From an uncultured bacterium (GTDB lineage Bacteria; Patescibacteriota; Dojkabacteria; SC72): a stretch of 34,083 nucleotides of DNA. The stretch is from the NCBI GenBank assembly GCA_937899155.1, contig CALDJM010000033.1, positions 1 to 34,083 on the forward strand. Reading direction: 5' to 3'. The notes under the pieces are model-generated. The model was not told where the DNA came from and ran no database searches. It saw only the letters and a program-made list of their open reading frames with translations. Below are positions 5,241 to 26,273 of the stretch, piece by piece; position 1 is the stretch's first letter; each line of letters starts with the position of its first letter. The position numbers and the translations under genes were made by a program.

Positions 5241-5246
5241 TTGGTG

Positions 5247-5465
5247 TTACTGTGTGTTTTTAAACATATCACAGAAGTCTTGGTTTATTTCCTGACTTGT
5301 TTCCTCTTTGTATATTTTTTCAATACCCCTATTACATACTGTTTTAACAGATGTTCTAAACATTAGTAGAGAAAACATATCTTTGTAAATGATAAAGAGT
5401 GTTAGTCCTACTAAGAAGGTAATGTTAAGTATTATTGATATTGTTAGTAATATTTTTGTTTTCAT
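5247..5465 (-). CDS. small membrane-anchored protein, N-terminal-module paralog of the 354-aa protein
   Basis: N-terminal TM MKTKILLTISIILNITFLVGLTLFIIY. The start overlaps the upstream stop (TAATG). It shares MF...S....C ... DFC.M with the 5465..6529 product. Confidence 0.5.
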   Translation of the reverse strand: MKTKILLTISIILNITFLVGLTLFIIYKDMFSLLMFRTSVKTVCNRGIEKIYKEETSQEINQDFCDMFKNTQ

Positions 5466-6529
5466 TATTCTATTATCCCTTCATTTACAAGTAAGATAGT
5501 TTCAGTTTGTGTTATTGTTTCTTTGTCATGTTCTATTAGGAATTTTTGTATATTGGTTGTTGGAACTCTTAGGGATAATCCTTTTTCTAATTTGAGTGTA
5601 GTGTTAATAGTTTCTGGTGGGTTAGGGTATTGGTATAGGAGTATGTATTCTTTGCCATCTTCTATATACACCTGTGCTTCTTCATAACAAAAGTTCTTAC
5701 CATCCCCAAGAATTTTTGTGGTATGTACAGCAGCATATTGGACTGCTTTACTATTTTTTAGGAAGAATATCTCACTATTACATTGTATGTGAGTTCCTAT
5801 GTAATCATTTAGAATCATGAATGGATATTTAAGTTGAGAGTTGTTGTTGATATATAGTTGTAAATTATATGTGTTTTCCCCTCTGTAAATTGCCATAGTA
5901 GTGTTTTTTAGGTGGTTACCTTGGTAGTTAACTTTGCACTCTTCGTATGCCATTGGGAACTTAATATGGAATGAGGGTTCAGGTTTCAGTGGGCACATTA
6001 CCTCAATTATATTTTCATCATCGATTTGGTATGTAAAGCTCTCTTCTTTGTTTAATGCATCTACTGGTTGGTTAAATGTTAGGTGTGGTAGGCGAGGAAG
6101 TGTTTCTAACTCTTTTTTGTCTACGACATTGTCTACATATGAAAGTTTTTCTAATATTGTTTGATTTTTTCCTTCTATTTTAGCTTTAGAGTATTTAATA
6201 TATTTGTTGTATAGTTCTTCTTTATCACTATTCTCTTTGTTAGGGGTAATGTTTTCTTCTGTAATAGGATTATATCTTTGAAGTTTTTTCTCCATGTTCT
6301 TCCATTCTTCTGACCCTTCTTTCATATTACAGAAATCTTCTAATGTTTTAGTGTTAGGGTGATTAGGAATATCTTTTCTTGATTTTGATAGTAGGAAGTA
6401 GCATGCACCTCTTTTCGAGAGTTTGAACATAACAGGGTGGAAGAGTTTTGTGAAGAGGGCTAAGGATATTATAGTGAGGAAGAGAAGGTTGATGATTGTT
6501 GAGATTGTTAGTAGGGTCTTTTTATTCAT
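5465..6529 (-). CDS. membrane-anchored protein of unknown function (paralog family)
   Basis: N-terminal TM MNKKTLLTISTIINLLFLTIISLALF. The C-terminal region shares LKYPFMIL..IGT...IFFLKN...VQY with the 273-aa protein. Confidence 0.6.
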   Translation of the reverse strand: MNKKTLLTISTIINLLFLTIISLALFTKLFHPVMFKLSKRGACYFLLSKSRKDIPNHPNTKTLEDFCNMKEGSEEWKNMEKKLQRYNPITEENITPNKENSDKEELYNKYIKYSKAKIEGKNQTILEKLSYVDNVVDKKELETLPRLPHLTFNQPVDALNKEESFTYQIDDENIIEVMCPLKPEPSFHIKFPMAYEECKVNYQGNHLKNTTMAIYRGENTYNLQLYINNNSQLKYPFMILNDYIGTHIQCNSEIFFLKNSKAVQYAAVHTTKILGDGKNFCYEEAQVYIEDGKEYILLYQYPNPPETINTTLKLEKGLSLRVPTTNIQKFLIEHDKETITQTETILLVNEGIIE

Positions 6530-6973
6530 ATTTTAAGAATGTAGATGTTAGGGATAGTATAGGATATATATTAACAAAAACAAAGTAACAGATACTCTAA
6601 TTATTCAATTATCAAAATATAACATTCGGAATCCAAGAAACAAGAACGAAAAAATGTATGTTTTTACAAAGGGAGAAATTAGAGAAATTCTATTAACAAA
6701 AGATTGGCAGTAAACCTCCGCTTTCAGTATATTATTCCAATACCGCAGAGGGACTTCCCAATCTATTGATAACATTGTACCAAAACACCCCCTTAATCTC
6801 AAATCAAACATACTAATTCATTCGAGACACATGTTTCATTGCATCGATTGCATGGTAATCATTATCTATTAGTTCATTCAGAATATTACCGTTAAATAAC
6901 TCGGACCTACAATTCCTTTGCTGTAAATGGAATGGTGTTGGGTATCAATATGTGTTTATATCTTACTAAACAC

Positions 6974-7795
6974 TCAATCTTCAACAAATCCAGCAACCTC
7001 TATGATAGATGATTCTCTTACAATCATTTTCTTATCATGATCTATCTCCCACCTAGAAATCTTATTACCTATAAATGCTGGATCTGACCAATAACTGTAT
7101 ATATAGGGTTTGTTACTTTCTATATCAATATATACATTAACCTCTATATTAGATCTTAGTACTTGTTCAGTCAATTCGTTGTTATATCTAATCTCATATC
7201 TCACTAACTCATCATTAATTAGAAAATAAATAGCCTTTTTATCTCTAGACGAACCAATTGGCTCTTCTGCAACAATTAGTAATGGATACTTAAGCTCTGT
7301 ACTATGAAAAGTATGTAGTCCAACCTTGCCTACAAAGCCCAATTGTTCTCTTATTCCTATATTTGAATATATCTTGTCCTTGTACATAAGTTCCCCAGAG
7401 AGATATATCTGTGAAAGTTCTTCTTTATATTCTTCATCCTTGATATATTTAACCTCTACCTTCTCATTATTACCAATGTCATATGAAAATATGTCTGACT
7501 TTTTCAAATCTATTTCTGGAATTACAGTAATGGGTTCTATCTCTTTTAGGTTCGTTTTATCATATTCTTTTACAATATCAGAAACATCTTCTAACATTGC
7601 CATGGTGTATTCATCTTTTAGTACTGCTTCATTACAATCTTTAGTTTTTATATATCCACAATACTTCTCTACAATTTCAATTCTATGATTGTTAATATTC
7701 TCTTTTTTCTGACTATCTAAGTGTTTGGTGAATATAGCTACTAATATTGTTGTAATAAGAAGGAAAGAAATACCGATTAGTATCTTTGTTTTCAT
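6974..7795 (-). CDS. membrane-anchored protein of unknown function (paralog family)
   Basis: N-terminal TM MKTKILIGISFLLITTILVAIF. It shares LKYPLLIV..IGS...IYFLIN...VRY with the 354-aa protein. It lies 24 nt downstream of the macro-domain gene. Confidence 0.6.
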   Translation of the reverse strand: MKTKILIGISFLLITTILVAIFTKHLDSQKKENINNHRIEIVEKYCGYIKTKDCNEAVLKDEYTMAMLEDVSDIVKEYDKTNLKEIEPITVIPEIDLKKSDIFSYDIGNNEKVEVKYIKDEEYKEELSQIYLSGELMYKDKIYSNIGIREQLGFVGKVGLHTFHSTELKYPLLIVAEEPIGSSRDKKAIYFLINDELVRYEIRYNNELTEQVLRSNIEVNVYIDIESNKPYIYSYWSDPAFIGNKISRWEIDHDKKMIVRESSIIEVAGFVED

Positions 7796-18520: not shown

Positions 18521-19702
18521 CTATTCTCTGATTACTGTAAATGGATATGAAAAATGTTCTATCCAAGATTTATAACCATTAAATCCAGTTGGAGATATTC
18601 CACCCCATCCTTCGTTATATCTTACTAAGCTATGCCCAGTATTTATTGTGTATCTTGAGAATCTAGTAGATTCTACAATATTTTCAATAAAAGATTTGTT
18701 GTCTGACAAAATATTTACGCCTAATCGAAATTTCCGATTATGAATCCATTCTAATAATTCTTCTTGTGATGAGTAGCTTAATAACCATAAGGTTGGTAAA
18801 AACTGAGCAGATTTAATTAACTCACCATTAGGATTGATGTTAGACATAATATATGGAAATTCTCCATTAATCTTTTGTATTTCTATAGTAGTTTCTTTTT
18901 TAATAAGGTTTTGGAAATTGTTTATAAGAATTTCTCCTGGTTGATAGTTTTCGGGAATATATTTTGAGAACTCTCCTGACTTAGTCATCTGATTACATGT
19001 TTCTATTAAAAGATCTTTATAATGAGGATAGAGTTCACTATTAATATATATCCCTTGAATTCTTTGACAACTTTGTCCTGTATGTAGAAAACTGTCATGT
19101 ATAGTTGTTTTAATACTCTCTTTATCTATATCTTTAATGTCAGAGATATTTATAATTTGAAAATCAGAAGCTTCAATTTCTGGATGAAACTCGATCAGAT
19201 TTTCTGCACAGATTTTTGCTATTTGTTTTGCATTCTCAAAACCTCCAAAGAAGTATACTGCATCCATATCGTGAATGATGTTTGTCACTTCTTCTTTGGA
19301 ACAAACATGTATATTCAATGGAAGCTGATATTTATTGATAATACCACTGTTCTCCCAAATGTGAGAAAAGAAATTAAGTGCTTTACTGCTTGGTTTTATT
19401 TCTACAGTATTTCCTACTACTAGAGCGTTTAGTACAGGTATTATTGACATTATAAAAGGCTCATTATACGAGAGTATGATTAATATGTCTCCTTTGGGAG
19501 ATAAGGTCGTTGAGTTTAGATTGGTCTCAATATTTACTATATACTTTTCTAGGTAACCGATTATATAGTTGTAATCATAATCAATTGCAAAGTCTGTATC
19601 ATTAGTTATATCTTTATTCAGAGTTTTTAAAGATCTCTCATTTTCTCTTAAGTAGGATATTAAATTGTTCGTAATACCCTCTACTTGATTAATCTTCAAC
19701 AT
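18521..19702 (-). CDS. aldehyde dehydrogenase superfamily protein (short; LuxC-like acyl-CoA/acyl-protein reductase candidate)
   Basis: ILSYNEPFIMSIIPVLNALVVGNTVEIKPSSKA resembles the ALDH NAD(P)-binding pattern (P.N.P....AL.AGN.V..KPS). FLHTGQSCQRIQGIYI contains the catalytic-Cys-type motif (GQ.C). Confidence 0.6.
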   Translation of the reverse strand: MLKINQVEGITNNLISYLRENERSLKTLNKDITNDTDFAIDYDYNYIIGYLEKYIVNIETNLNSTTLSPKGDILIILSYNEPFIMSIIPVLNALVVGNTVEIKPSSKALNFFSHIWENSGIINKYQLPLNIHVCSKEEVTNIIHDMDAVYFFGGFENAKQIAKICAENLIEFHPEIEASDFQIINISDIKDIDKESIKTTIHDSFLHTGQSCQRIQGIYINSELYPHYKDLLIETCNQMTKSGEFSKYIPENYQPGEILINNFQNLIKKETTIEIQKINGEFPYIMSNINPNGELIKSAQFLPTLWLLSYSSQEELLEWIHNRKFRLGVNILSDNKSFIENIVESTRFSRYTINTGHSLVRYNEGWGGISPTGFNGYKSWIEHFSYPFTVIRE

Positions 19703-20909
19703 ACTGTACGAGTTTTACTTTATTGTTATCTTCTCTACCAAAGAAATTAGGTTCAACTGAATTTATGTTGAAAGGAACTTTTGTAGTATCTTTAATATCT
19801 TTTTGTAATTTGGGAAGAATCTTGTCATCTTTTACACTAATATAGACTTGCGGAGTATACTTAATATCGTTCTTTTTGATCTTAAAGATTATATCTGATG
19901 ATTTTAAATTGTTTCCAACTATATTAAGAATGAAGTCCCTTAATTCATAAGGATTAACTTTTATCCCTCTGATGAACATCGTATCATTAATACGTCCATG
20001 TATTCTATCTATTCTATAACTTTGTCTTCCGCACTTACATTTCCCTGGAATTATTTTTGTAATATCCCCAGTTCTATATCTAATTATAGGAGAAGCTTCT
20101 TTTTTTAGGCTTGTAAGCACTAATTCTCCCAACTCTCCTAGTTTTAGAGTTCCCCCTGTCTTGGGGTTGATTATCTCAGCAATGACATAATCGTCAAGGA
20201 TGTGCAAGCCATTGTGATATTCACACTCATATGCGATTCCTGTATTTACTTCACAGAGGCCATAGTGATCAAAAACCTCTATATCGAGGAGTTCTTCAAT
20301 TTTTGCTCTTGTTTGATTTGAATAAATTTCTCCTGCGGCAATAGCCCTTTTAAGATTAAGTTTTTCTCTTGGTATGTTATTCTTCTCTAAAGAATCGCTC
20401 AAGTACAATAAGAAACCGGGAGTAGCAACAATGGTATCAATTTGATAATCAATCATTAAATTGATTTGCTTCATAATTGGTTGTATACCTGCTGGTAATA
20501 CAAAAGCTCCCAGATGTTGTATAGCATATGTATTTATTGCCGCTCCTGAAAATAAGCCATAACTCATTATAAACATTAAGCGACTATCTTTATTTATACC
20601 AAAAGTTTTCCATGCTTTAGATATAGCTTTGTTTCCTTCGAGAATATCCTTTTTTGTGAGGTATGATACAACGGCTTTGCCAGTTGTTCCTGAAGAGGTA
20701 TGTACTTCGATTACATTTTGCATATCTGTTGCTAGTCCTCCAAACGGATAGTTCTCTCTTAAATCTTGCTTTGTTGTAAAGGGTAGTGTAGAGAGATCTT
20801 CTAATCGTGATAATATTTTAAGATTTTTATCTTTATATAAATTCGTTTGTGACGCTGCTTTTATTGTTTTATTAAGATTTTGTAACCTTGATGAGTCATC
20901 TGTTTTCAT
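19689..20909 (-). CDS. adenylate-forming ligase of the PaaK / CapK / LuxE (coenzyme F390 synthetase-like) family
   Basis: AMP-binding P-loop HTSSGTTGKAVVSY. The roughly 400-aa size is typical of the PaaK-like short ANL enzymes. Confidence 0.65.
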   Translation of the reverse strand: MKTDDSSRLQNLNKTIKAASQTNLYKDKNLKILSRLEDLSTLPFTTKQDLRENYPFGGLATDMQNVIEVHTSSGTTGKAVVSYLTKKDILEGNKAISKAWKTFGINKDSRLMFIMSYGLFSGAAINTYAIQHLGAFVLPAGIQPIMKQINLMIDYQIDTIVATPGFLLYLSDSLEKNNIPREKLNLKRAIAAGEIYSNQTRAKIEELLDIEVFDHYGLCEVNTGIAYECEYHNGLHILDDYVIAEIINPKTGGTLKLGELGELVLTSLKKEASPIIRYRTGDITKIIPGKCKCGRQSYRIDRIHGRINDTMFIRGIKVNPYELRDFILNIVGNNLKSSDIIFKIKKNDIKYTPQVYISVKDDKILPKLQKDIKDTTKVPFNINSVEPNFFGREDNNKVKLVQYVED

Positions 20910-22111
20910 ATCAGATTTTCTTTGTGCATATTAATTAATGTGTTTTTTGTTTTTTCAATAATATCTTCTAATATTTCTTGGTGAACTGGTGATAGAAATA
21001 CAGTTTCTGTTGGTAGGGGAGGGAAGAGAATTTTAAGTCTGGCCATTCTTTTGATAAATTCCTGATATGCATTGGCATCAAAATTTTCGTTCGTTATTCC
21101 TTGATTGAAATTTTTACATCCAAAACCTATGGTGAGCATAGAGCCTATCCCTTGTATTGCAATGTTCAAATCGTATTCATGAATTAGGTTGCTTATTTCT
21201 AATCTAAAGCGATCCCCCATTTCATCTAACTGTTCATAAAACTTCTCGTCTTTCAATTTCTTAAGTACTGTTCTGGCTACCGATAAAGAGAGAGGGTGAC
21301 CGTTAAATGTCCCTGCGAAGAATACTTTTCCTGTTGGCATGTAATGTTCCATAATTTCTTTCTTCCCTGCGATAAGAGATAGTGGAAGACCTGAAGCAAT
21401 TGCTTTAGAGAAGGTGGAGAGATCTGGTGTTACATTAAATCTTTTTTGAGATCCTCCAATAGACATCCTGAAGCCATTTACAACCTCATCAAATATTAAA
21501 ACAGTACCTGTTCTTGTACAAATATCTCTGATTTCTTGAAGGTATCCTTCATTTGGTGGAGTACATCCAGAGTTTGCCAAAACGGGTTCAAGTATCATGC
21601 ATGCAAAAGACCCACTTTCGAGTTTCTCAGACACAGCTTTTGGATCATTGAATTTTACAAACTCGGGAGGAGTCTTTATTGTTGTTCCTGTTGTTGAGAC
21701 CATTCCTTCATGTGCACCATGGTAGCCTCCTTTTATAGAAAGAACATTGTTTCTTTTGGTGTAATTTCTTGCAAGTCTTATTGCATATGCTACCGCGTCT
21801 GAACCTGTAGTGGCATATCTGATTACTTCTGCGGAAGGAATAAGATTATGTATTTCTTCTGAATACTCTTTTTCGATAAGTGTTTGATAAGAGAAAAAGA
21901 ATGCTTTCTCTGTAGCGGTTTTGATAGATTTAACGATATCTGGATCTGCGTGTCCAAAAAGTAATGCTCCATATCCCATCCACATGTCAACAAATCTAGA
22001 GCCATCTTTATCATAAACATAAGGTCCTTCTCCTCTGACTATATTTTGGGGATAATATTCAGGTATTGGAATTGGTGAATTAACTCCACCTGCAAGATAA
22101 TTATTACTCAT
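20906..22111 (-). CDS. class III PLP-dependent aminotransferase, glutamate-1-semialdehyde 2,1-aminomutase (HemL)-like
   Basis: GGVNSPIP near the N-terminus, FDEVVNGFR, TFSKAIASGLPLSLIAG (PLP Lys) and FAGTFNGHPLSL. Confidence 0.75.
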   Translation of the reverse strand: MSNNYLAGGVNSPIPIPEYYPQNIVRGEGPYVYDKDGSRFVDMWMGYGALLFGHADPDIVKSIKTATEKAFFFSYQTLIEKEYSEEIHNLIPSAEVIRYATTGSDAVAYAIRLARNYTKRNNVLSIKGGYHGAHEGMVSTTGTTIKTPPEFVKFNDPKAVSEKLESGSFACMILEPVLANSGCTPPNEGYLQEIRDICTRTGTVLIFDEVVNGFRMSIGGSQKRFNVTPDLSTFSKAIASGLPLSLIAGKKEIMEHYMPTGKVFFAGTFNGHPLSLSVARTVLKKLKDEKFYEQLDEMGDRFRLEISNLIHEYDLNIAIQGIGSMLTIGFGCKNFNQGITNENFDANAYQEFIKRMARLKILFPPLPTETVFLSPVHQEILEDIIEKTKNTLINMHKENLI

Positions 22112-22655
22112 GGAAAAGTTTCTTCTTAAAATTTATGTTAATAGCTTTCATAGCTTGAGCCATTTTCTCTTTATGAGAACCTTCTAGCTGAATGTATGGA
22201 ATGTGGTGGGTATCTAGAATACTTTTTATTTGATTGTTAAGAAAAATGTTTTCAACGTTATTAGTTACTCCGTTTTCGGAAGAATTAAATAAAACAATAT
22301 CGTATTTTCTTAGATTAACAATTGCTTTTTCAAACAATTCAGGATTATATTCTCGCAAAATTCCCTCTGAAACAACATAGTTGTCGAGCAACGTGTTATT
22401 AAAGAATGTAAAATTGTTTGAATCCTTGAAAATTTGGAAACTCATAAATTCGTCTAATTTTTTGTCTGTAATACTTTGCAACTCCTCTAAAGACTCGGGT
22501 GTTTGAAGAGATATTTCATTTAAGTTTGTTTTGTAATGATTAGCGAGTTCTCGAGTGATTTTGTTGCTTTCTTCTAAGCCAAACCCTGTAATTGCTATTT
22601 TTGTAACTAAATCTCGATATACAATCTCTGGAAGATAGTCTACATATTTTTTCAT
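22104..22655 (-). CDS. NadR-like C-terminal (ribosylnicotinamide kinase-like) domain with degenerate P-loop; probably the 3' part of a frameshifted gene
   Basis: MKKYVDYLPEIVYRDLVTKIAITGFGLEESNKITRELANHYKT aligns by eye to the remembered NadR segment [50 protein letters not shown] is replaced here by GLEESNKIT. Confidence 0.55.
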   Translation of the reverse strand: MKKYVDYLPEIVYRDLVTKIAITGFGLEESNKITRELANHYKTNLNEISLQTPESLEELQSITDKKLDEFMSFQIFKDSNNFTFFNNTLLDNYVVSEGILREYNPELFEKAIVNLRKYDIVLFNSSENGVTNNVENIFLNNQIKSILDTHHIPYIQLEGSHKEKMAQAMKAININFKKKLFHE

Positions 22656-23067
22656 ATTTTCTCATAGTAGAGGATATATTGATATGTGCTCTATCCATGT
22701 CTACAACAACATTTTCTGCATTTAAGTGACGACTCATATGCTCACCATAGCTTTCTGAAGAGATAAAGTGCGTAATTTTCTTCCCTCTTAATACTTTAGA
22801 GATAAAAAGCTCTTGTTTTCTTTGTACATTCAAATCACTATTATTGTGTTCGTTGGGTGCATCCCATCCTTCTATAACATTCACTTGTGGATATAGCTGT
22901 CTAATCCAGTTTGCTCTAACATTTGTCGGGATGTGGACTCGATCTGGACAATCGTATACTACGAATATTAGTTCATCGACAATGTCAAGAGCTGTATCAA
23001 TTAGATATTGGTGTCCTTTATGCATAGGAGCAACTTTCCCAAGAATTAACCCAGTTGTTTTATTCAT
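22540..23067 (-). CDS. NadR-like N-terminal nucleotidyltransferase (HxGH cytidylyl/adenylyltransferase) domain; the last ~38 codons look out of frame
   Basis: GKVAPMHKGHQYLIDTALDIVDEL (compare GKFYPLHTGHIYLIQRA...VDEL) and ISSTMR (ISxxxxR motif). After ISSTMRK the frame reads a low-complexity R/S-rich tail. Confidence 0.6.
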   Translation of the reverse strand: MNKTTGLILGKVAPMHKGHQYLIDTALDIVDELIFVVYDCPDRVHIPTNVRANWIRQLYPQVNVIEGWDAPNEHNNSDLNVQRKQELFISKVLRGKKITHFISSESYGEHMSRHLNAENVVVDMDRAHINISSTMRKYEKICRLSSRDCISRFSYKNSNYRVWLRRKQQNHSRTR

Positions 23068-23999
23068 AGCAAATCGTTTGATAATCTAAAATTATTATTT
23101 AGTAATTCAATAAGTGATTTATATTCAATGTCTACATTGCATGAAATACCTTTGTTATTGGGCGAGTTAATCTTGTGGCCTATATGTAAAAGATATGTAA
23201 ACATAAAAAGTGTTCTTCTAAGCATTAGAAAATGTAGCATATCTAATTGTTGTTGAGTAAGAATGGGGAATTTGTCTTGATAAGCCCGAATATAAGTTTC
23301 AATTAGATTCATGTCTGAGCCCGTAGTGTTTATTATGAGCTCCTTCATCGCGATAGCAATATCACTAATTACGGGTGCAAAGTGACTTTCTCCGAAATCA
23401 ATGAATAACAATTCTTGCTTTGAGTTTTGTAAAATATTAACTAGCTCTAGATCTTCATGAATTATTGATTTCGGGAGATCAAAATTTTTATATTTTGATA
23501 TATATGAATCTACCTTCTCTTTTGCTAAGTTGATGACATCTTCTATCTCAGAATCTTCTTCTTTTCTGGAGAAAAGATCTATAAAGCTTAAATCAAAAAT
23601 GGAGAATCTTTCTCTTTTGCCCTTAGGACTAAAGTTTTGTAGCGTTTTGTGCATATCCGCTTGCATATGAGCGATTTTTTCGAGGGTTTCCTTTTTAATG
23701 TCAACAGGTGACAAGGGATCGCCATCGAAATATTTGTATAAAATAAATATTTCATCTTCGAATTGTAAAATCTCTCCAAATGTTTCTATATATCCTTTTG
23801 TAGATTTGGATAATTTTTCTAGTACAGATTTCTCAAATACTAGTTCGTCAAGATCCTTTAGGGGAAATATTTTGAGGACAAATTTCTTATTGTCTTCTGT
23901 TTCAATTAGAAAGCAACTGTTCTCATGTCCAGAATCAATCACTGTAAGTTTTTTACAGTGTAAAAAACTAAGACTATTTCTAATCGTCAAAATGTCCAT
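23064..23999 (-). CDS. APH-fold small-molecule kinase (aminoglycoside/choline/homoserine-kinase-like phosphotransferase)
   Basis: Brenner motif IIHEDLELVNIL (HxDxxxxN), FIDFGES (DFG-like) and an N-terminal VIDSGHENSCFLIE...FVLKIF nucleotide-binding region. I prefer the ATG at 23999. The ORF-track start at 24044 is a TTG that doubles as a -35-like TTGACG. Confidence 0.7.
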   Translation of the reverse strand: MDILTIRNSLSFLHCKKLTVIDSGHENSCFLIETEDNKKFVLKIFPLKDLDELVFEKSVLEKLSKSTKGYIETFGEILQFEDEIFILYKYFDGDPLSPVDIKKETLEKIAHMQADMHKTLQNFSPKGKRERFSIFDLSFIDLFSRKEEDSEIEDVINLAKEKVDSYISKYKNFDLPKSIIHEDLELVNILQNSKQELLFIDFGESHFAPVISDIAIAMKELIINTTGSDMNLIETYIRAYQDKFPILTQQQLDMLHFLMLRRTLFMFTYLLHIGHKINSPNNKGISCNVDIEYKSLIELLNNNFRLSNDLL

Positions 24000-24015
24000 A
24001 GTTATATGACAGATG

Positions 24016-24044
24016 ATTTTATAGTAAATACGACATTTCGTCAA
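24016..24044 (-). promoter_or_regulatory. candidate promoter of the kinase operon (-35 TTGACG, 17-nt spacer, -10 TAAAAT) squeezed against the IS end
   Basis: The minus strand reads caagaaTTGACGaaatgtcgtatttacTATAAAATcatctgtcatataactATG. The -35 begins 7 nt from the IS inverted repeat. Confidence 0.35.
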
Positions 24045-24050
24045 TTCTTG

Positions 24051-24075
24051 CTTAATGTCTCATGACATTTGTCCA
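24051..24075. repeat. IS terminal inverted repeat, left (CTTAATGTCTCATGACATTTGTCCA)
   Basis: It is the perfect reverse complement of 24984..25008 and contains the transposase stop codon. Confidence 0.85.
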
Positions 24076-24962
24076 CCTAATATTACCTCCATTGGTGTCT
24101 TTAAATCAATTCCTAAATGTGGTCTATCTGTGTTGTACTCCTCTAACCACAGTCTAAACTGCTCTCTTAAATCATCATAATCCTTTGGTCTTTTCATTCT
24201 AAAAAAGAAGAACTCCTCCTCATCTGTTCTAAAACTTCTCTCAATCACAGCATTCTCATTAGGACTACTCTTGTGTGTGAAGTGATGATTCATACCTAAA
24301 GCATTAACATGCTTAACAAATCTACTCTGAAACTCTAACCCATTATCAGTTTGAAGAAAGACTGGTTTGAAAGGTAGTCTAGGTACAATCTCAAGTAGAG
24401 AAGATATTGCACAATCCATATTTAAGTGATTGAAAATCACAGCATCTTTGTATCTTGAGTATATATCAATGATTGCATACTCGTAACATGTCCAAGGAAG
24501 CCCTGAGAGCTCAGGAGTGATATATTTCACATCCATTTGTAAATATCCTACTTCTTTTGTATTTCTTAGATACATATGTTTAGTTTTTTGATATCTAGGT
24601 CTTCTATGATTATGGTAATTATCTACTAAACCTTTTCTTTTTAGAAGCCTATGTATTGTATTATGGTGCAGGTCTAATTTCAGTACATACTTAATTTTTC
24701 TAGCACAAAAGCCTTTTTCTTTTTTCAACTTAACAATCTTTCTACTAATTGGATGTGTTAGTTTTGTGTGTATTGTTTTTGGTTTTGTGCTTTTTCTTTC
24801 TATCTTTACCTTTCTGATTGGTGTGAGACCGCTTTTCTGTTTGGCTTTTTTGTACCATCTTTTTACAGTTTTAGAACTAATTCCTAGTTCTTTAGCGGTC
24901 TTTACGGCATCGTAATCATTGTCAATGTATCTATTGACTATTGTTTTTGGTTGTATCCTCAT
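24060..24962 (-). CDS. DDE transposase (integrase core/rve fold) with N-terminal HTH
   Basis: HTH VKTAKELGISSKTVKRWYKK. The catalytic residues are D in YLQMDVKY, D in LQTDNGLEF (62 residues later) and E in NAVIERSF (35 residues later). Confidence 0.85.
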   Translation of the reverse strand: MRIQPKTIVNRYIDNDYDAVKTAKELGISSKTVKRWYKKAKQKSGLTPIRKVKIERKSTKPKTIHTKLTHPISRKIVKLKKEKGFCARKIKYVLKLDLHHNTIHRLLKRKGLVDNYHNHRRPRYQKTKHMYLRNTKEVGYLQMDVKYITPELSGLPWTCYEYAIIDIYSRYKDAVIFNHLNMDCAISSLLEIVPRLPFKPVFLQTDNGLEFQSRFVKHVNALGMNHHFTHKSSPNENAVIERSFRTDEEEFFFFRMKRPKDYDDLREQFRLWLEEYNTDRPHLGIDLKTPMEVILGGQMS

Positions 24963-24983
24963 GACTTTAGTTTATGTTAACTA

Positions 24984-25008
24984 TGGACAAATGTCATGAG
25001 ACATTAAG
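24984..25008. repeat. IS terminal inverted repeat, right (TGGACAAATGTCATGAGACATTAAG)
   Basis: It is the perfect reverse complement of 24051..24075. Confidence 0.85.
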
Positions 25009-25341
25009 GAGGGTGGTATTCGACCGAGTACAGGACAAGCTCAAAAGATAGCAATTGCTCGCTTCTTCTACAGAAATGCTCCTCTTGCAATATTTGACGA
25101 GCCAACTGCAGCAATCGATGCAGTTTCTGAGTACAAGATATTTAACAGGATATATAATTTCTTTGATAATAAAACTGTCATTATCATCTCACATAGATTT
25201 AGTACAGTAAGAAATGCAGATAGGATAATCGTTTTAGACAAAGGCAAAGTCGTTGAAGAGGGAAGCCATGAAGAGCTTGTTAAAAAGAAAGGTGGAACAT
25301 ATAGCAAATCATACAAACTACAAGCAGAGGGATACAAGTAA
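25009..25341 (+). pseudogene. 3' relic (111 codons) of an MsbA-like ABC exporter ATP-binding domain, truncated by the IS
   Basis: My translation in frame from the first base after the IS repeat reads EGGIRPSTGQAQKIAIARFFYRNAPLAIFDEPTAAIDAVSEYKIF...IIISHRFSTVRNADRIIVLDKGKVVEEGSHEEL...*. It has the signature remnant, Walker B and H-loop but no Walker A, TMD or start. It parallels the tail of the exporter at 1..1817. Confidence 0.8.
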
Positions 25342-25418
25342 CTTCAAGTACCTATAACAATATTAAATATCTGTTAAAAGCGACCTTAAACACCCTTACC
25401 ATAAGGATAAAATGTACC

Positions 25419-25427
25419 GACCAGGTC
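25419..25427. repeat. palindrome GACC-A-GGTC (member of RACC-W-GGTY motif set)
   Basis: Read directly. It is intergenic, between the ABC relic and the end of the ABC-2 permease gene. Confidence 0.5.
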
Positions 25428-25448
25428 TGGTGAACGGTTAATTAAGTG

Positions 25449-26273
25449 TTAACTGCTTGCACTGGAGTACCTTTTTACATTCATATTCCACACTAGTTTG
25501 GATATTACTAAAAGTATAATCCCAATCACCAACCCCACCAAAACAAATCCATAACTAAATCTTCCAATCATAATATTGGCAGGTACTGTTGTTAGAAATG
25601 CAATTGGTATTGCTGTATAAAAAACAACACTTAATGAGCTTCCAAATACATCAATAGGATATTTTGTTAGACCTAGTAATTCTTTTGCAATTGAAAGAAT
25701 ACCATTTCTAGGATTGGAGATTGTAAAGCTAGCAAAGAAAAGGTATATGGCATACCAAATTAACAATGCTACACATATTGCAACAATACCAACTAGGACA
25801 TTGAGAAAAGATATACTCCCCCACTCTGCAATAATATAGTAAAGAATTAATATGAATCCCGATAGTGCTGTAATGAAGTTTGTAATGAAGAAGTCTGAGA
25901 ATGATGCATAGAACGATGATGAGATGGGTTTGAGAAGTATATAGTCAAACTTTCCTTCAATTACTTTTGATTCTAAATATAGAAGATTTGTTGAGAACAG
26001 AGACCAACCAATGTAATTAAGAACATTCCAAATACCAATAACTAGATATGTTTGGGATCTACTCCAACCTGCATACATTTCACTCTTTCCAAATAGTACA
26101 TTAAGTAATGCAATTTGAATCCCAACAACAAGAAGAGTTCGCAGAAATCTAACAAAAATATCTGTTTTGTATAGATAACTTCGCTTAATTCCTCCCCTAA
26201 CTACTTGTTTCCATACTCTAAAGTAGTAGGAAAATGTTCTTTTATTTTGTTTTTCAGATTCCTTCCGCTTCAT
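25449..26273 (-). CDS. ABC-2 family transporter permease
   Basis: Multi-TM protein. GKFDYILLKPISSSFY resembles the remembered ABC-2/DUF990 pattern (G.ld..LlkP). I prefer the ATG at 26273 (MKRKESEKQ...). The track start at 26342 is TTG. Confidence 0.6.
   Translation of the reverse strand: MKRKESEKQNKRTFSYYFRVWKQVVRGGIKRSYLYKTDIFVRFLRTLLVVGIQIALLNVLFGKSEMYAGWSRSQTYLVIGIWNVLNYIGWSLFSTNLLYLESKVIEGKFDYILLKPISSSFYASFSDFFITNFITALSGFILILYYIIAEWGSISFLNVLVGIVAICVALLIWYAIYLFFASFTISNPRNGILSIAKELLGLTKYPIDVFGSSLSVVFYTAIPIAFLTTVPANIMIGRFSYGFVLVGLVIGIILLVISKLVWNMNVKRYSSASS

What the first reader, a model, noticed from the sequence alone, without database searches (positions are those of the whole stretch)
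18521..23999. IS-adjacent operon of six overlapping reading frames (five proteins if the split NadR-like gene is one): a carboxylate-to-aldehyde-to-amine module plus kinase and nucleotidyltransferase
Seen directly: six consecutive minus-strand reading frames overlap stop to start by 4, 116 (the NadR-like split discussed separately), 8, 4 and 14 nt, so this is one translationally coupled operon. In order, the products are:
- an APH-fold kinase (HEDLELVN, IDFG);
- a NadR-like HxGH nucleotidyltransferase (PMHKGH, ISSTMR) fused or split with a kinase-like domain whose P-loop is degenerate;
- a HemL-like class III aminotransferase (GGVNSP, FSKAIASG);
- a PaaK/CapK/LuxE-type adenylating ligase (SSGTTGK);
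- a short aldehyde-dehydrogenase/LuxC-like protein (GNTVEIKPS, GQSC).

Established knowledge: LuxE-type synthetases with LuxC-type reductases convert acids to aldehydes. Class III aminotransferases convert aldehydes or keto groups to amines. A kinase plus an HxGH cytidylyl/adenylyltransferase is the logic used to make NDP-activated head groups (Kennedy-type CDP-ethanolamine/choline, CDP-glycerol).

My inference is that the operon builds an amino-alcohol or amino-acid-derived phospho head group and activates it as a nucleotide conjugate, for decoration of a surface polymer or lipid or for a nucleotide-linked small molecule. I do not know this gene combination as a described pathway. For an organism that appears metabolically minimal, and with an IS right next to it, it looks like acquired accessory chemistry.
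Basis: partly seen in the sequence, partly recalled or inferred. Interest (0 to 1): 0.65.

Follow-up and report, generated by a model that had tools for sequence, protein, structure and literature searches.

The report
Operon normally tied to tyrosyl-tRNA synthetase
This five-gene operon of a tiny symbiotic-type bacterium probably reduces a tyrosine-like acid to an amine and joins it to an adenine nucleotide; in almost every other genome that has it, it sits beside the tyrosyl-tRNA synthetase gene, an association no paper in the searched library describes.

Summary
Six overlapping minus-strand ORFs (18521-23999) encode an APH-fold kinase, a split NadR-like protein, a HemL-like aminotransferase, a PaaK-like ligase and a short ALDH.

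The split is a 5-nt deletion private to this assembly. Four independent assemblies of the same population carry an intact 322-aa gene.

The same five genes, in the same order, recur in Patescibacteria. Relatives of the ALDH also occur in DPANN archaea, so this is a real, conserved operon.

In 31 of 32 informative lineages the ligase-ALDH core lies 0-2.3 kb from the tyrosyl-tRNA synthetase gene (TyrRS), in varying positions and orientations. The window is the only exception. A 958-bp IS sits where TyrRS follows in sister contigs.

Accessory modules swap. Aminotransferase + kinase + NadR-like alternates with Fe-alcohol dehydrogenase + Polβ nucleotidyltransferase, or with TyrRS/TrpRS-like paralogues.

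The nucleotidyltransferase is NMNAT-type with a dead kinase domain, so it is probably an adenylyltransferase, not a cytidylyltransferase.

Best reading (inferred): a tyrosine-like acid is reduced, aminated, phosphorylated and adenylylated to a tyrosyl-adenylate-like conjugate that acts on or with TyrRS. The surface head-group idea has no specific support. The library searches found no description of this cluster.

The parts
23064..23999 (-). APH-fold small-molecule kinase (311 aa from the ATG at 23999). A TTG at 24044 is an unlikely alternative start.
   Evidence: Pfam APH 79 bits and Choline_kinase 43 bits; best NCBIfam match is homoserine kinase at 72 bits, below the 271 cutoff. HxDxxxxN and (I/L)D(F/W)x motifs are present in 14/14 orthologues. 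There is no PDB sequence match at E<=0.001.
22540..23067 (-). N-terminal fragment of the NadR-like gene: the NMNAT-type HxGH nucleotidyltransferase domain, truncated by the frameshift inside the ISSTMIR motif.
   Evidence: TIGR01526 nadR_NMN_Atrans 57 bits. Alignments A1 and A4 show GKxAPxHxGH, SSExYGEHMS and IS(S/A)TMIR conserved with true NadR.
22104..22655 (-). C-terminal fragment of the NadR-like gene: a ribosylnicotinamide-kinase-like P-loop domain with a degenerate Walker A and without the IPYDDTWDRSG segment of true NadR.
   Evidence: It aligns to residues 138-322 of the intact 322-aa orthologues. PDB NadR hits cover both domains. A model of the intact protein (pLDDT 88.9) matches NadR structures only as a two-domain protein. 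0/16 orthologues have GxxxxGK[ST].
22661..22662 (.). Site of the 5-nt deletion (GATAC on the coding strand, TCGTA on the + strand) that splits the NadR-like gene in this assembly only.
   Evidence: DNA alignment with L001. L057 matches the window over 6,639 bp with 0 mismatches and this single gap. The X8 contig carries TCGTA behind 22661. L056-L058 encode an intact 322-aa protein.
20906..22111 (-). HemL-like class III (PLP) aminotransferase. It is not a true glutamate-1-semialdehyde aminomutase.
   Evidence: hemL 338 bits against a cutoff of 527. Closest PDB relatives are GSAM at 223 bits. The PLP lysine FSKAI is invariant, HemL's NSPVRAF is replaced by invariant NSPIPIP in 19/19 orthologues, and the lid-loop region is shortened.
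19689..20909 (-). PaaK/LuxE-type adenylate-forming ligase, always immediately upstream of the ALDH and overlapping it.
   Evidence: PaaK 265 bits against a cutoff of 646. PDB PaaK 4r1l at 235 bits. Motif counts: SSGTTGK-type 34/36, YGxxE 36/36, YRTGD-type 32/36. The ligase is paired with the ALDH in all 46 loci that hold it.
18521..19702 (-). Short (393 aa) ALDH-superfamily protein, LuxC-like. Proposed to be an acyl-enzyme (thioester) reductase that makes the aldehyde.
   Evidence: Pfam Aldedh 97 bits, LuxC 21.8 bits. GQxC Cys in 41/42, YNEP Asn in 40/42, EFxPE(I)E Glu in 35/42. The model has pLDDT 86.5 and a generic ALDH fold at TM 0.75-0.8. The subfamily is tight, about 26-30 clusters at 50% identity among 1.84 billion representatives.
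24051..25008 (-). 958-bp IS481-family insertion sequence (transposase 24060-24962) with perfect 25-bp terminal inverted repeats, inserted 51 bp upstream of the kinase start codon.
   Evidence: NF033577 transpos_IS481 160 bits, rve_3 and rve. Inverted repeats at 24051-24075 and 24984-25008. L001 has the operon without the IS. The IS is multi-copy in run X8.
25008..25009 (.). Junction where the window departs from its sister contigs. In L056-L059 TyrRS (506 aa, divergent strand) starts 72 bp beyond this IS end. In the window, ABC-2 transporter genes follow instead.
   Evidence: Homology of L056-L059 to the window ends exactly at 25008. Contigs of four runs break at 24051 and 25008/25009, and a non-IS sequence precedes 25009 in all four.

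Best explanation
The six ORFs are one five-gene operon. Its NadR-like gene is broken here by a 5-nt deletion private to this assembly. The operon belongs to a modular family of accessory clusters in Patescibacteria (CPR), with related forms in DPANN-type archaea, that are almost always physically tied to the tyrosyl-tRNA synthetase gene.

Proposed mechanism (inferred unless stated otherwise):
1. The PaaK/LuxE-like ligase adenylates a tyrosine-class carboxylate, either tyrosine itself or a 4-hydroxyphenyl acid.
2. The ligase hands the acyl group to the catalytic Cys of the short ALDH/LuxC-like protein, which reduces it to the aldehyde.
3. In this variant the HemL-like aminotransferase converts the aldehyde to an amine. 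In sister variants an Fe-alcohol dehydrogenase makes the alcohol instead.
4. The APH-fold kinase phosphorylates a hydroxyl of the molecule. The NMNAT-type domain of the NadR-like protein, whose own kinase domain is dead, then adds AMP from ATP to give an ADP-linked conjugate. Sister variants do this in one step with a Polβ-type nucleotidyltransferase or with a TyrRS/TrpRS-like paralogue.

The end product is proposed to be a non-hydrolysable tyrosyl-adenylate-like molecule that acts on or with TyrRS, as an inhibitor, as a regulator, or with the linked TyrRS giving immunity.

What is shown: gene content, co-conservation, TyrRS linkage, catalytic residues and folds.

What is inferred: the direction of the ALDH reaction, tyrosine as substrate, the site of phosphorylation, ATP as donor and the biological role.
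For: Operon and conservation:
- The same five genes in the same order occur in 18 of 40 dereplicated lineages.
- The ligase-ALDH pair is invariant and overlapping.

TyrRS linkage:
- 31 of 32 lineages with enough flank have a full-length TyrRS (TIGR00234, 240-336 bits, cutoff 114) within 0-2311 bp. It lies upstream or downstream, on either strand, and in three lineages inside the operon.
- At least six TyrRS lineages (<45% identity between them) are involved, and one TyrRS lineage can carry different operon variants.
- The loci were fetched with the ALDH as bait, so TyrRS was not selected for.
- Near-identical sister contigs of the window have TyrRS just past the IS.

Tyrosine signal from independent architectures:
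- L064/L065 have a degenerate TyrRS paralogue in place of the ligase: paralogue, ALDH/LuxC, APH, HxGH nucleotidyltransferase, then a true archaeal TyrRS.
- Variant 3 and L066 carry a catalytic-domain-only TyrRS/TrpRS-like paralogue that keeps PHVG and KMGKS motifs.
- L017 has two TyrRS genes flanking the cluster.
- tRNA-Tyr is adjacent in L021 and L030.

Module swapping:
- An aminotransferase or an alcohol dehydrogenase follows the same ligase-ALDH core, which fits an aldehyde intermediate.
- A nucleotidyltransferase of some kind is present in every complete variant.

Nucleotidyltransferase type:
- The closest relatives are true PnuC-NadR-NrtR salvage enzymes.
- The nucleotidyltransferase domain is conserved but the kinase domain has lost Walker A and its lid segment.
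- The fold matches NadR, NMNAT and PPAT.

Aminotransferase:
- It is closest to HemL, which acts on an alpha-amino aldehyde, but lacks HemL's Arg.

Weaker support:
- MccF-branch S66 peptidases flank the cluster in four lineages. MccF is an immunity enzyme against an aminoacyl-adenylate mimic (PMC9239234).
- Tyrosinol and Tyr-AMP analogues bind the TyrRS active site (PMC12966498; PMC1934993).
Against: - No product, substrate or activity has been measured, so every chemical step is inferred from family membership and neighbourhood.
- The ALDH keeps the general-base Glu and its fold does not discriminate reductase from dehydrogenase, so the pathway could run in the oxidative direction.
- If tyrosine is the substrate and the aldehyde becomes an amine, the only hydroxyl left for the kinase is the phenol. 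The phosphorylation site is therefore unclear.
- Variants without an alcohol dehydrogenase or aminotransferase (L025, L037, L048, L064) show that the nucleotide need not be attached at C1.
- PaaK-type ligases typically take aryl-acetates rather than alpha-amino acids.
- The linked TyrRS looks like the lineage's ordinary housekeeping enzyme: the orthologue in L070 has a plain ribosomal-protein context. A dedicated resistant second copy is therefore not shown, apart from the two-copy loci L017 and L064.
- MccF cleaves a carboxamide that a fully reduced product would lack.
- The variant-3 paralogue scores slightly better against TrpRS than TyrRS models.
Confidence: 0.4

Rival explanations
1. The operon builds an amino-alcohol or amino-acid-derived phospho head group, activates it as an NDP conjugate (Kennedy/Lic-type logic), and a transferase then uses it to decorate a surface polymer or lipid.
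For: Kinase + HxGH nucleotidyltransferase is the canonical logic for NDP-activated head groups. The APH kinase also hits the choline/ethanolamine kinase family. The acid -> aldehyde -> amine module is supported. CPR cells have elaborate surfaces and scavenge building blocks (general knowledge).
Against: The nucleotidyltransferase is NMNAT/NadR-type, and adenylyltransferases dominate its sequence and fold neighbours. No phosphotransferase, LicD-like or glycosyltransferase family recurs among neighbours in about 40 lineages. Sister variants use a Polβ-type nucleotidyltransferase, which would give an NMP ester that is not a pyrophosphate donor. The model gives no reason for the near-obligatory TyrRS linkage or for the TyrRS-like paralogues.
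Confidence: 0.17
2. A tRNA-synthetase-dependent pathway modelled on the C5 route (GluRS -> Glu-tRNA reductase -> HemL). TyrRS, or its paralogue, supplies activated tyrosine (Tyr-AMP or Tyr-tRNA). The ALDH-like protein reduces this to tyrosinal and the HemL-like enzyme rearranges or aminates it. TyrRS is a biosynthetic partner, not a target, and the ligase activates a second acid.
For: The aminotransferase is HemL-like above all other class III enzymes. In L064/L065 a TyrRS paralogue directly precedes the ALDH/LuxC gene and there is no PaaK-like ligase. TyrRS is translationally coupled to the cluster in variant 2, with 4-nt overlaps in L009, and lies inside the operon in L008, L030 and L038.
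Against: The PaaK-like ligase is otherwise invariant and always fused in register with the ALDH, which is the LuxE-LuxC arrangement and makes an extra activating enzyme unnecessary. TyrRS may lie on the opposite strand or more than 1 kb away. This model does not by itself explain the kinase and nucleotidyltransferase.
Confidence: 0.15
3. Catabolic or salvage direction. An aromatic amine (window variant) or alcohol (Fe-ADH variant), such as tyramine or tyrosol, is converted to the aldehyde, oxidised by the ALDH to the acid and activated by the ligase. The NadR-like protein and kinase serve NAD or nucleoside salvage.
For: Swapping aminotransferase for alcohol dehydrogenase upstream of a common ALDH + ligase is equally natural for converging catabolic routes. 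The ALDH retains the hydrolytic general-base Glu and resembles class-3 aromatic/fatty aldehyde dehydrogenases. The ligase is closest to phenylacetate-CoA ligase. The closest characterised relatives of the NadR-like protein do NAD salvage.
Against: No downstream paa or ring-processing genes occur in any locus. An AMP-forming ligase costs ATP and gains nothing without further steps. The NadR-like RNK domain is dead and no PnuC/NrtR accompanies it. A nucleotidyltransferase of three unrelated folds is retained across variants, which argues that it belongs to the pathway. The TyrRS linkage is unexplained.
Confidence: 0.1
4. There is no functional tie to TyrRS. The flank of tyrS is simply a hot spot where accessory genes accumulate in CPR genomes, and the operon makes some unrelated small molecule.
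For: Other, different accessory inserts sit next to TyrRS orthologues. L069 has a 3.6-kb insert compared with L070. L066 has a different module without the ligase or ALDH. The linked TyrRS appears to be the native housekeeping gene.
Against: The cluster occurs on both sides and both strands of TyrRS, and TyrRS can lie in the middle of the operon. TyrRS-derived paralogues are themselves cluster members. Even the alternative inserts contain TyrRS/TrpRS-like paralogues. Stop-start overlaps with TyrRS occur in variant 2.
Confidence: 0.08

Closest known systems
LuxE-LuxC fatty-acid reductase of bacterial luciferase operons (acyl-protein synthetase + ALDH-superfamily acyl reductase)
   Same: An ANL/PaaK-type adenylating enzyme is encoded directly next to an ALDH-superfamily protein with a catalytic Cys. 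The Pfam LuxC model is hit at its threshold. The logic is acid -> acyl-AMP -> acyl-enzyme -> aldehyde.
   Different: Sequence identity to solved ALDHs is only 13-18%. The protein is about 90 residues shorter than LuxC. There is no LuxD or luciferase. The ligase is PaaK-like, not Pfam LuxE. The substrate is probably aromatic rather than a fatty acid. Reductase activity is untested.
C5 pathway module GluRS -> glutamyl-tRNA reductase -> glutamate-1-semialdehyde aminomutase (HemL)
   Same: It links an aminoacyl-tRNA synthetase, a thioester-type reductase that makes an alpha-amino aldehyde, and a HemL-type PLP enzyme. HemL is the best match of the window's aminotransferase.
   Different: The reductase here is ALDH-type, not GluTR. 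The aminotransferase fails the HemL cutoff (338 against 527 bits), lacks the Arg of NSPVRAF and has a shortened lid. The synthetase is TyrRS. No haem pathway is present.
NadR (HTH-less) NMN adenylyltransferase / ribosylnicotinamide kinase of the PnuC-NadR nicotinamide riboside salvage system
   Same: It has the same two-domain architecture and fold, and 35-38% identity over the full length to Paenibacillus enzymes. All NMNAT motifs are kept.
   Different: Walker A and the IPYDDTWDRSG segment of the kinase domain are lost. There is no PnuC or NrtR. The protein is always encoded between an APH kinase and a class III aminotransferase. It scores 57-83 bits against a cutoff of 341 for TIGR01526.
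Kennedy/Lic-type head-group activation (choline or ethanolamine kinase + cytidylyltransferase)
   Same: An APH/choline-kinase-fold kinase is followed by an HxGH nucleotidyltransferase, which gives a phospho-alcohol and then an NDP-alcohol.
   Different: The nucleotidyltransferase is of the adenylyl (NMNAT/PPAT) branch. No downstream phosphotransferase is conserved nearby. Sister variants replace kinase + nucleotidyltransferase with a Polβ nucleotidyltransferase.
Gene clusters for aminoacyl-adenylate-mimic antibiotics with target-related immunity (microcin C with MccF/MccE; more generally aaRS-inhibitor clusters carrying a copy of the target synthetase, the latter from general knowledge)
   Same: A synthetase gene is co-localised with enzymes that join an amino-acid-like moiety to a nucleotide. 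MccF-branch peptidases sit beside the cluster in four lineages. MccF's function is taken from PMC9239234.
   Different: There is no MccA/MccB-type peptide-adenylation system. The linked TyrRS seems to be the housekeeping copy in most genomes. No inhibitor has been demonstrated. The chemistry proposed here (a reduced carboxylate) is not known from a natural aaRS inhibitor.

Membership tests
Aldehyde dehydrogenase superfamily (PF00171) | Profile score above the Pfam cutoff; catalytic Cys, general-base Glu and oxyanion Asn; ALDH fold | tested here: met
   96.7 bits against a cutoff of 23. C212 (GQxC 41/42), E175 and N80 (YNEP 40/42) are conserved. The AF2 model has pLDDT 86.5 and TM 0.75-0.8 to many ALDHs.
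LuxC-type acyl reductase (PF05893) | Works in the reductive direction on an acyl group delivered by a partner LuxE-type synthetase | not testable with these tools
   The LuxC profile hit is 21.8 bits against a cutoff of 21 (borderline). An adenylating partner is always adjacent. The fold search does not separate reductases from dehydrogenases.
Phenylacetate-CoA ligase PaaK (TIGR02155) | Equivalog score and a paa catabolic gene context | tested here: not met
   264.6 bits against a cutoff of 646.3. No paa genes occur in any of about 50 loci. ANL motifs are kept, so it belongs to the PaaK-like clade of adenylate-forming enzymes only.
Glutamate-1-semialdehyde 2,1-aminomutase HemL (TIGR00713) | Equivalog score; the Arg of the NSPVRAF motif (binds the substrate carboxylate; role recalled from the GSAM literature); a full-length gating loop | tested here: not met
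   338.5 bits against a cutoff of 527.3. NSPIPIP is invariant in 19/19 orthologues and the loop region is about 15 residues shorter in HMMER alignments to GSAM. The PLP Lys is kept, and class III membership is met (Aminotran_3, 200 bits).
NadR NMNAT/RNK (TIGR01526) | Two-domain NMNAT + P-loop kinase fold | tested here: met
   PDB NadR sequence hits cover both domains. The only full-length Foldseek hits are NadR 8x7f, 1lw7 and 6gyf at E 1e-18 to 1e-13.
NadR NMNAT/RNK (TIGR01526) | Functional ribosylnicotinamide kinase (Walker A GxxxxGK[ST], lid segment), equivalog score, PnuC/NrtR context | tested here: not met
   0/16 orthologues have Walker A, and the IPYDDTWDRSG segment is absent. Scores are 57-83 bits against a cutoff of 341. 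PnuC and NrtR are present next to the Paenibacillus relative but in none of the cluster loci.
APH / choline-kinase-fold kinases (PF01636) | Profile score; Brenner motif HxDxxxxN and a metal-binding Asp | tested here: met
   79.4 bits against a cutoff of 23.2. Both motifs occur in 14/14 orthologues. No equivalog is reached (homoserine kinase 72 against 271), so the substrate is unknown.
Kennedy/Lic-type CDP-head-group pathway | A cytidylyltransferase, plus a transferase that uses the CDP-alcohol | tested here: not met
   The nearest relatives are adenylyltransferases (NadR, NMNAT, PPAT), and ECT ranks 18th at E 5e-5 with TM 0.31. No recurrent transferase family is found among clustered neighbours. 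Neighbours were clustered by BLAST, not exhaustively annotated.
aaRS-inhibitor biosynthetic cluster with self-resistance synthetase | A synthetase gene co-localised with the biosynthetic genes | tested here: met
   31 of 32 informative lineages, at 0-2311 bp.
aaRS-inhibitor biosynthetic cluster with self-resistance synthetase | The linked synthetase is an additional, resistant copy | tested here: inconclusive
   Two TyrRS-type genes occur in L017 and L064. However, an orthologue of the linked TyrRS sits in a plain housekeeping context in L070.
aaRS-inhibitor biosynthetic cluster with self-resistance synthetase | The product inhibits the cognate synthetase | not testable with these tools
   This needs the compound and an aminoacylation assay.
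IS481 family insertion sequence | DDE (rve) transposase of IS481 type flanked by terminal inverted repeats | tested here: met
   NF033577 scores 160 bits (best family, below the curated 224), with rve_3 and rve. Perfect 25-bp inverted repeats lie at 24051-24075 and 24984-25008. No clear target-site duplication was seen.

The most novel reading that the evidence does not exclude
Ultra-small episymbiotic bacteria and archaea (CPR and DPANN) carry a modular, horizontally shuffled family of gene clusters that make non-hydrolysable tyrosyl-adenylate mimics. These would be reduced-tyrosine alcohol, amine or aldehyde forms joined to AMP or ADP. They would target the TyrRS of hosts or competitors, or tune the producer's own, with the physically linked TyrRS (and in places MccF-like peptidases) providing immunity. 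This would be a first candidate small-molecule weapon, or translation-control metabolite, for these lineages, and a natural route to a class of aaRS inhibitor known so far only from synthetic chemistry.
Probability: 0.2. Interest if true: 0.9.

Novelty: new variant of a known kind. Interest (0 to 1): 0.72.

Why it matters
CPR bacteria and DPANN archaea have minimal metabolism, and very little is known about any specialised chemistry they perform or how they interact with hosts. A conserved, modular enzyme set is locked to one specific aminoacyl-tRNA synthetase across Saccharibacteria, Parcubacteria and Microgenomates, with related forms in archaeal-type contigs. That gives a concrete, testable lead, and every enzyme is soluble and small enough for in vitro reconstitution.

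If the product is a tyrosyl-adenylate mimic, three things follow:
- It would give a natural biosynthetic route to aminoalkyl-adenylate-type aaRS inhibitors.
- It would provide a new self-resistance-style marker for genome mining.
- It would suggest a mechanism by which episymbionts manipulate translation.

Even if the role is different, three findings are new pieces of enzymology: a NadR whose kinase half has died and been replaced by a separate APH kinase, a HemL-like enzyme that has lost HemL's substrate arginine, and TyrRS-derived paralogues recruited into small-molecule pathways.

For annotation, the result also shows that this MAG's split gene is private to this assembly, and that its IS junction is not reproduced in the other assemblies examined.

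Tried and rejected
- **Rfam and tRNA scans of the window:** nothing found.
- **Promoter/terminator scan:** at background level (42 sites against 38 expected). Only a 10/12 match between the IS and the kinase start is worth mentioning.
- **Composition and codon usage as evidence of acquisition:** the operon is indistinguishable from housekeeping genes.
- **Anti-phage defence system:** no PADLOC hit for any operon protein.
- **Phospho-lyase idea:** the kinase would phosphorylate an amino alcohol and a class III enzyme would eliminate the phosphate, as in APH-aminotransferase fusions (PRK06148/9). The kinase hits those fusions weakly, but the aminotransferase is HemL-type and those models are not among its top hits, so I set this aside.
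- **CoA-synthase-like idea (PPAT + DPCK):** PPAT is only a distant single-domain fold match. NadR matches both domains, and the close relatives are NAD-salvage enzymes. Rejected.
- **Fold search of the ALDH model, to decide reductase versus dehydrogenase:** all ALDH classes are equidistant, so it was uninformative.
- **PDB sequence searches for the kinase and the Polβ-type protein:** no hits.
- **RNA-seq evidence for co-transcription:** no runs available.
- **Raw reads for the frameshift:** only assembled contigs were available. They show presence of the intact allele but cannot exclude the deletion allele.
- **Literature searches for the cluster:** four searches, nothing describing it.

Full report
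**1. The observation**

One search lists six consecutive minus-strand ORFs: 23064-24044 (ATG at 23999), 22540-23067, 22104-22655, 20906-22111, 19689-20909 and 18521-19702.

Pfam and NCBIfam give these assignments:
- APH/choline-kinase fold (79 bits).
- An HxGH nucleotidyltransferase whose best model is nadR_NMN_Atrans.
- A class III aminotransferase, best matched by HemL (338 bits, cutoff 527).
- A PaaK-like adenylate-forming ligase (265 bits, cutoff 646).
- An ALDH-superfamily protein (97 bits) that also touches the LuxC model at its threshold.

None reaches an equivalog cutoff. They are divergent members of their superfamilies, not orthologues of named enzymes. An IS481-family transposase follows at 24060-24962.

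The rest of the window places it in a low-GC, small-genome bacterium: SufBD, a macro-domain protein, a type I R-M system, LysRS, a HisRS-type synthetase, an L,D-transpeptidase and GreA. The contig is DAIOWZ010000004.1 of assembly GCA_036758225.1.

**2. The split NadR-like gene**

Relatives carry one intact gene of 322-337 aa between the kinase and the aminotransferase, and the window's two fragments align to its two halves.

At the DNA level the window lacks five bases (GATAC) inside the codons for the ISSTMIR motif. Logan contig L057 matches the window over 6,639 bp with no mismatches and this single gap. L056-L058 encode the intact 322-aa protein. A contig of an unrelated digester run also carries the five bases.

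The frameshift is therefore private to this MAG. It is either a rare allele or an assembly or polishing error, and only contigs, not reads, were available to decide. One other metagenome contig (L047) has an independent frameshift at almost the same inter-domain position, which I cannot explain.

**3. Conservation**

A search with the ALDH-like protein found about 96 clusters. The named ones are Patescibacteria (Woesebacteria, Parcubacteria, Berkelbacteria, Saccharibacteria) plus a Woesearchaeota MAG. An exhaustive profile search shows a tight subfamily of only about 26-30 clusters at 50% identity, followed by a sharp score gap.

Using the ALDH as bait, I fetched 13 loci from species-representative genomes and 36 from metagenomes. 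I then mapped all components onto them and dereplicated to 40 lineages.

The ligase and the ALDH are always adjacent and usually overlapping. The architectures break down as follows:
- **Variant 1, the window's** (kinase, NadR-like, aminotransferase, ligase, ALDH): 18 lineages.
- **Variant 2** (a 258-aa Polβ-type nucleotidyltransferase and an Fe-alcohol dehydrogenase ahead of ligase-ALDH): 9 lineages.
- **Variant 3** (a 350-aa catalytic-domain-only class Ic synthetase paralogue): 3 lineages.
- **Variant 4** (Polβ nucleotidyltransferase, ligase, ALDH): 3 lineages.
- **Variant 5** (GTP cyclohydrolase II, Polβ nucleotidyltransferase, M20 peptidase, APH): 1 lineage.
- The remaining 6 lineages are five partial loci and one distant ALDH (L054).

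The operon is real.

**4. The TyrRS linkage**

Of the 40 lineages, 31 have a full-length tyrosyl-tRNA synthetase gene within 0-2,311 bp of the cluster, mostly within 300 bp. These genes score 240-336 bits on TIGR00234 (cutoff 114). Eight lineages have too little flank to judge. The only lineage with long flanks and no TyrRS is the window itself.

Several features argue for selection rather than inherited synteny:
- TyrRS lies upstream or downstream, on either strand. In L008, L030 and L038 it lies inside the operon, between the aminotransferase and the ligase.
- In variant 2 it is the first gene and overlaps the next gene by 4 nt.
- At least six TyrRS lineages (<45% identity between them) are involved, and a single TyrRS lineage can carry different variants.
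- TyrRS was not the bait, and one TyrRS gene in a genome of roughly 1 Mb (a typical CPR size, from general knowledge) gives a chance expectation near 1%. The linkage cannot be a sampling artefact.

Further tyrosine signals:
- L017 has two TyrRS genes flanking the cluster.
- tRNA-Tyr abuts the cluster in L021 and L030.
- In the archaeal-type contigs L064/L065, a second-tier ALDH/LuxC is preceded (3-nt gap) by a degenerate 318-aa protein whose only family hit is tyrosine-tRNA ligase. It is followed by an APH kinase, an HxGH nucleotidyltransferase and a bona fide archaeal TyrRS (389 bits), with no PaaK-like ligase at all.

An orthologue of the linked TyrRS occurs in a plain YchF-S6-SSB-S18 context (L070). 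Another (L066-L068) is followed by the same 350-aa paralogue family plus a TrpD-like phosphoribosyltransferase, a Zn-ADH and a HAD phosphatase. The linked TyrRS thus looks like the native gene, next to which variable modules gather.

**5. Why the window lacks TyrRS**

The IS is a 958-bp element (24051-25008) with perfect 25-bp inverted repeats. It is absent from the 86%-identical relative L001.

In L056-L059 the sequence is identical to the window up to 25008, and TyrRS (506 aa, divergent strand) then starts 72 bp beyond the IS end. In the window, ABC-2 permease genes follow instead.

Contigs of four runs all break at the IS ends. A non-IS sequence precedes 25009 in all four, and another IS copy with a different flank exists in X8. 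The window's IS|ABC-2 junction is therefore either a recombination between IS copies or a mis-join across a repeat. Either way, the ancestral neighbour of this operon is TyrRS.

GC, GC3 and codon usage of the operon fall within the range of the window's housekeeping genes, so composition does not mark it as recently acquired.

**6. The individual proteins**

*ALDH-like protein.* Its Cys212, Glu175 and Asn80 are conserved. A confident model (pLDDT 86.5) has a generic ALDH fold equidistant from all solved classes. This confirms membership but not direction.

*Ligase.* It keeps the ANL core motifs and is closest to PaaK structures.

*Aminotransferase.* It keeps the PLP lysine but replaces HemL's NSPVRAF with an invariant NSPIPIP. 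It also has a shortened lid region. It is HemL-derived, but it is not HemL and is unlikely to bind an acidic side chain. (The role of that Arg is recalled from the GSAM literature, not tested here.)

*NadR-like protein.*
- It has full-length relatives at 35-38% identity in Paenibacillus, Lysinibacillus and Limnobaculum.
- The closest of these sits between PnuC and NrtR, a true nicotinamide-riboside salvage context.
- The alignment shows a well-conserved NMNAT domain. The kinase domain has lost Walker A (GAMSTGKST becomes GFGLEESNK or GAPSxExxK) and the IPYDDTWDRSG segment.
- The model (pLDDT 88.9) matches NadR as a two-domain protein. Otherwise it matches NMNAT and PPAT, with a cytidylyltransferase far behind.
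- I infer an adenylyltransferase whose dead in-cis kinase has been functionally replaced by the adjacent APH-fold kinase.

*Kinase.* It has intact catalytic motifs. Its weak best matches are amino-alcohol-type kinases: homoserine kinase II and choline/ethanolamine kinase.

**7. Mechanism**

*Shown:* a conserved ligase-ALDH pair; alternative aminotransferase or alcohol-dehydrogenase partners; a nucleotidyltransferase of one of three folds in every complete variant; and TyrRS linkage.

*Inferred:*
- The ligase-ALDH pair works like LuxE-LuxC (acid to acyl-AMP to acyl-enzyme to aldehyde). The aldehyde is then aminated (window) or reduced (variant 2). This parallels the alcohol-or-amine branch after reductive release in myxochelin biosynthesis, which I cite from memory.
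- The kinase plus the NMNAT-type enzyme gives an ADP-linked conjugate. The Polβ enzyme, or the synthetase paralogue, gives an AMP-linked one.
- The substrate is tyrosine or a close 4-hydroxyphenyl acid. This rests on the TyrRS linkage and the TyrRS-derived paralogues only.

Which hydroxyl is phosphorylated is open. Some variants have no alcohol dehydrogenase or aminotransferase (L025, L037, L048, L064), so the attachment site may be a group common to all variants, such as the phenol, rather than C1.

The biological role I consider most likely is a tyrosyl-adenylate-like molecule acting on or with TyrRS. Three observations bear on this:
- Tyrosinol occupies the tyrosine pocket and blocks charging (PMC12966498).
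- Non-hydrolysable Tyr-AMP analogues bind the active site (PMC1934993).
- MccF-branch S66 peptidases lie 200-350 bp from the cluster in four lineages. MccF is the immunity enzyme that cleaves aminoacyl-nucleotide mimics (PMC9239234). This is weak support, because a fully reduced product would lack MccF's scissile amide.

**8. Rivals**

- *Surface head-group model.* It keeps the chemistry but fits the adenylyl-type nucleotidyltransferase poorly. It also lacks any conserved downstream transferase, does not fit the Polβ variants, and does not explain TyrRS.
- *C5-like model, with TyrRS supplying activated tyrosine.* It is attractive for L064. It makes the otherwise invariant ligase redundant.
- *Catabolic reading* (amine or alcohol to aldehyde to acid to acyl-AMP/CoA). 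The ALDH residues do not exclude it. It leaves the nucleotidyltransferases and TyrRS unexplained, and no downstream genes exist.
- *Pure 'hot spot next to tyrS' reading.* It is contradicted by TyrRS lying inside operons and by TyrRS-like paralogues being cluster members.

**9. Novelty and verdict**

Four full-text searches found no description of this cluster or of a TyrRS-linked ligase-ALDH module in CPR or DPANN. No operon protein matches a known defence family.

The enzyme families are all known, and each sub-logic has precedents: LuxCE-type reduction, transamination of an aldehyde, kinase plus nucleotidyltransferase, and a synthetase-linked cluster. I therefore rate it a new variant of known kinds rather than categorically new. 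The combination, its modularity and its strict tie to one synthetase in the most reduced cellular genomes are unexpected and directly testable.

Confidence in the full mechanistic statement is about 0.4. The TyrRS linkage and the operon structure are essentially certain.

Noticed in passing
window 9951-12158 (+): The 735-aa gene between hsdM and hsdS of the type I R-M operon matches the candidate anti-phage defence family PDC-S46 almost end to end (781 bits). Pfam sees only a weak SMC_N ATPase signal. The R-M locus therefore carries an embedded second defence gene.
   Followed up: partly
window 25008/25009 and 25009-27424: The join between the IS and the ABC-2 permease genes is not reproduced in any of four independent run assemblies. 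All contigs break at the IS ends, and a different sequence precedes 25009. It may be a mis-assembly across a multi-copy IS, or a real IS-mediated rearrangement in this MAG.
   Followed up: partly
L047 4660-5660: There is a second, independent frameshift in a NadR-like orthologue at almost the same inter-domain position, just upstream of the xxATMIR motif. That copy also has FHVCH in place of HxGH. This could be coincidence, decay, or tolerated separation of the two domains.
   Followed up: no
L064 7041-12328 (and L065): This archaeal-type variant runs: degenerate TyrRS paralogue (318 aa), ALDH/LuxC (436 aa), APH (314 aa), HxGH nucleotidyltransferase (336 aa), then a true archaeal TyrRS (358 aa) on the opposite strand. 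It has no PaaK-like ligase and no aminotransferase.
   Followed up: partly
L066 8001-13299 (also L067, L068): A different TyrRS-adjacent module runs: TyrRS, a 350-aa class Ic paralogue (44.5% identical to the variant-3 paralogue), a TrpD-like phosphoribosyltransferase (162 bits, just under cutoff), a Zn-ADH and a HAD phosphatase. A TrpD-like gene also accompanies a second-tier ligase-ALDH/LuxC pair together with RibD_C in L061/L062.
   Followed up: partly
L069 9404-12900 versus L070: The same TyrRS orthologue occurs with and without a 3.6-kb insert immediately downstream. The insert holds a GTP-cyclohydrolase-I-like gene, a CYTH gene and several small ORFs. The tyrS flank seems to be a variable region in these genomes.
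   Followed up: no
L002 12998-14029; L015 2634-3659; L032 11344-12330; L052 445-1425: MccF-branch Peptidase_S66 genes lie 200-350 bp from the cluster in four lineages, on varying sides. Amidohydro_2 genes (four lineages) and sensor histidine kinases (seven lineages after merging duplicate loci) also recur nearby.
   Followed up: partly
L001 3018-4529; L056 10001-11521; L007, L021: The TyrRS of the window's own lineage is 503-525 aa. It has an N-terminal extension of about 100 aa that matches no family; the tyrS model aligns from residue 103.
   Followed up: no
window 16608-17321 (+) and 7820-8305 (-): A DUF6994 protein (264 bits) sits directly after hsdR, and a stand-alone macro-domain protein (162 bits) sits just before hsdM. 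Both flank the R-M/PDC-S46 locus. Neither hits PADLOC.
   Followed up: partly
window 27484-28767 (+) and 3993-7795: Several sizeable ORFs (427, 415, 354 and 273 aa) have no Pfam match. The 427-aa ORF also has no NCBIfam match.
   Followed up: no
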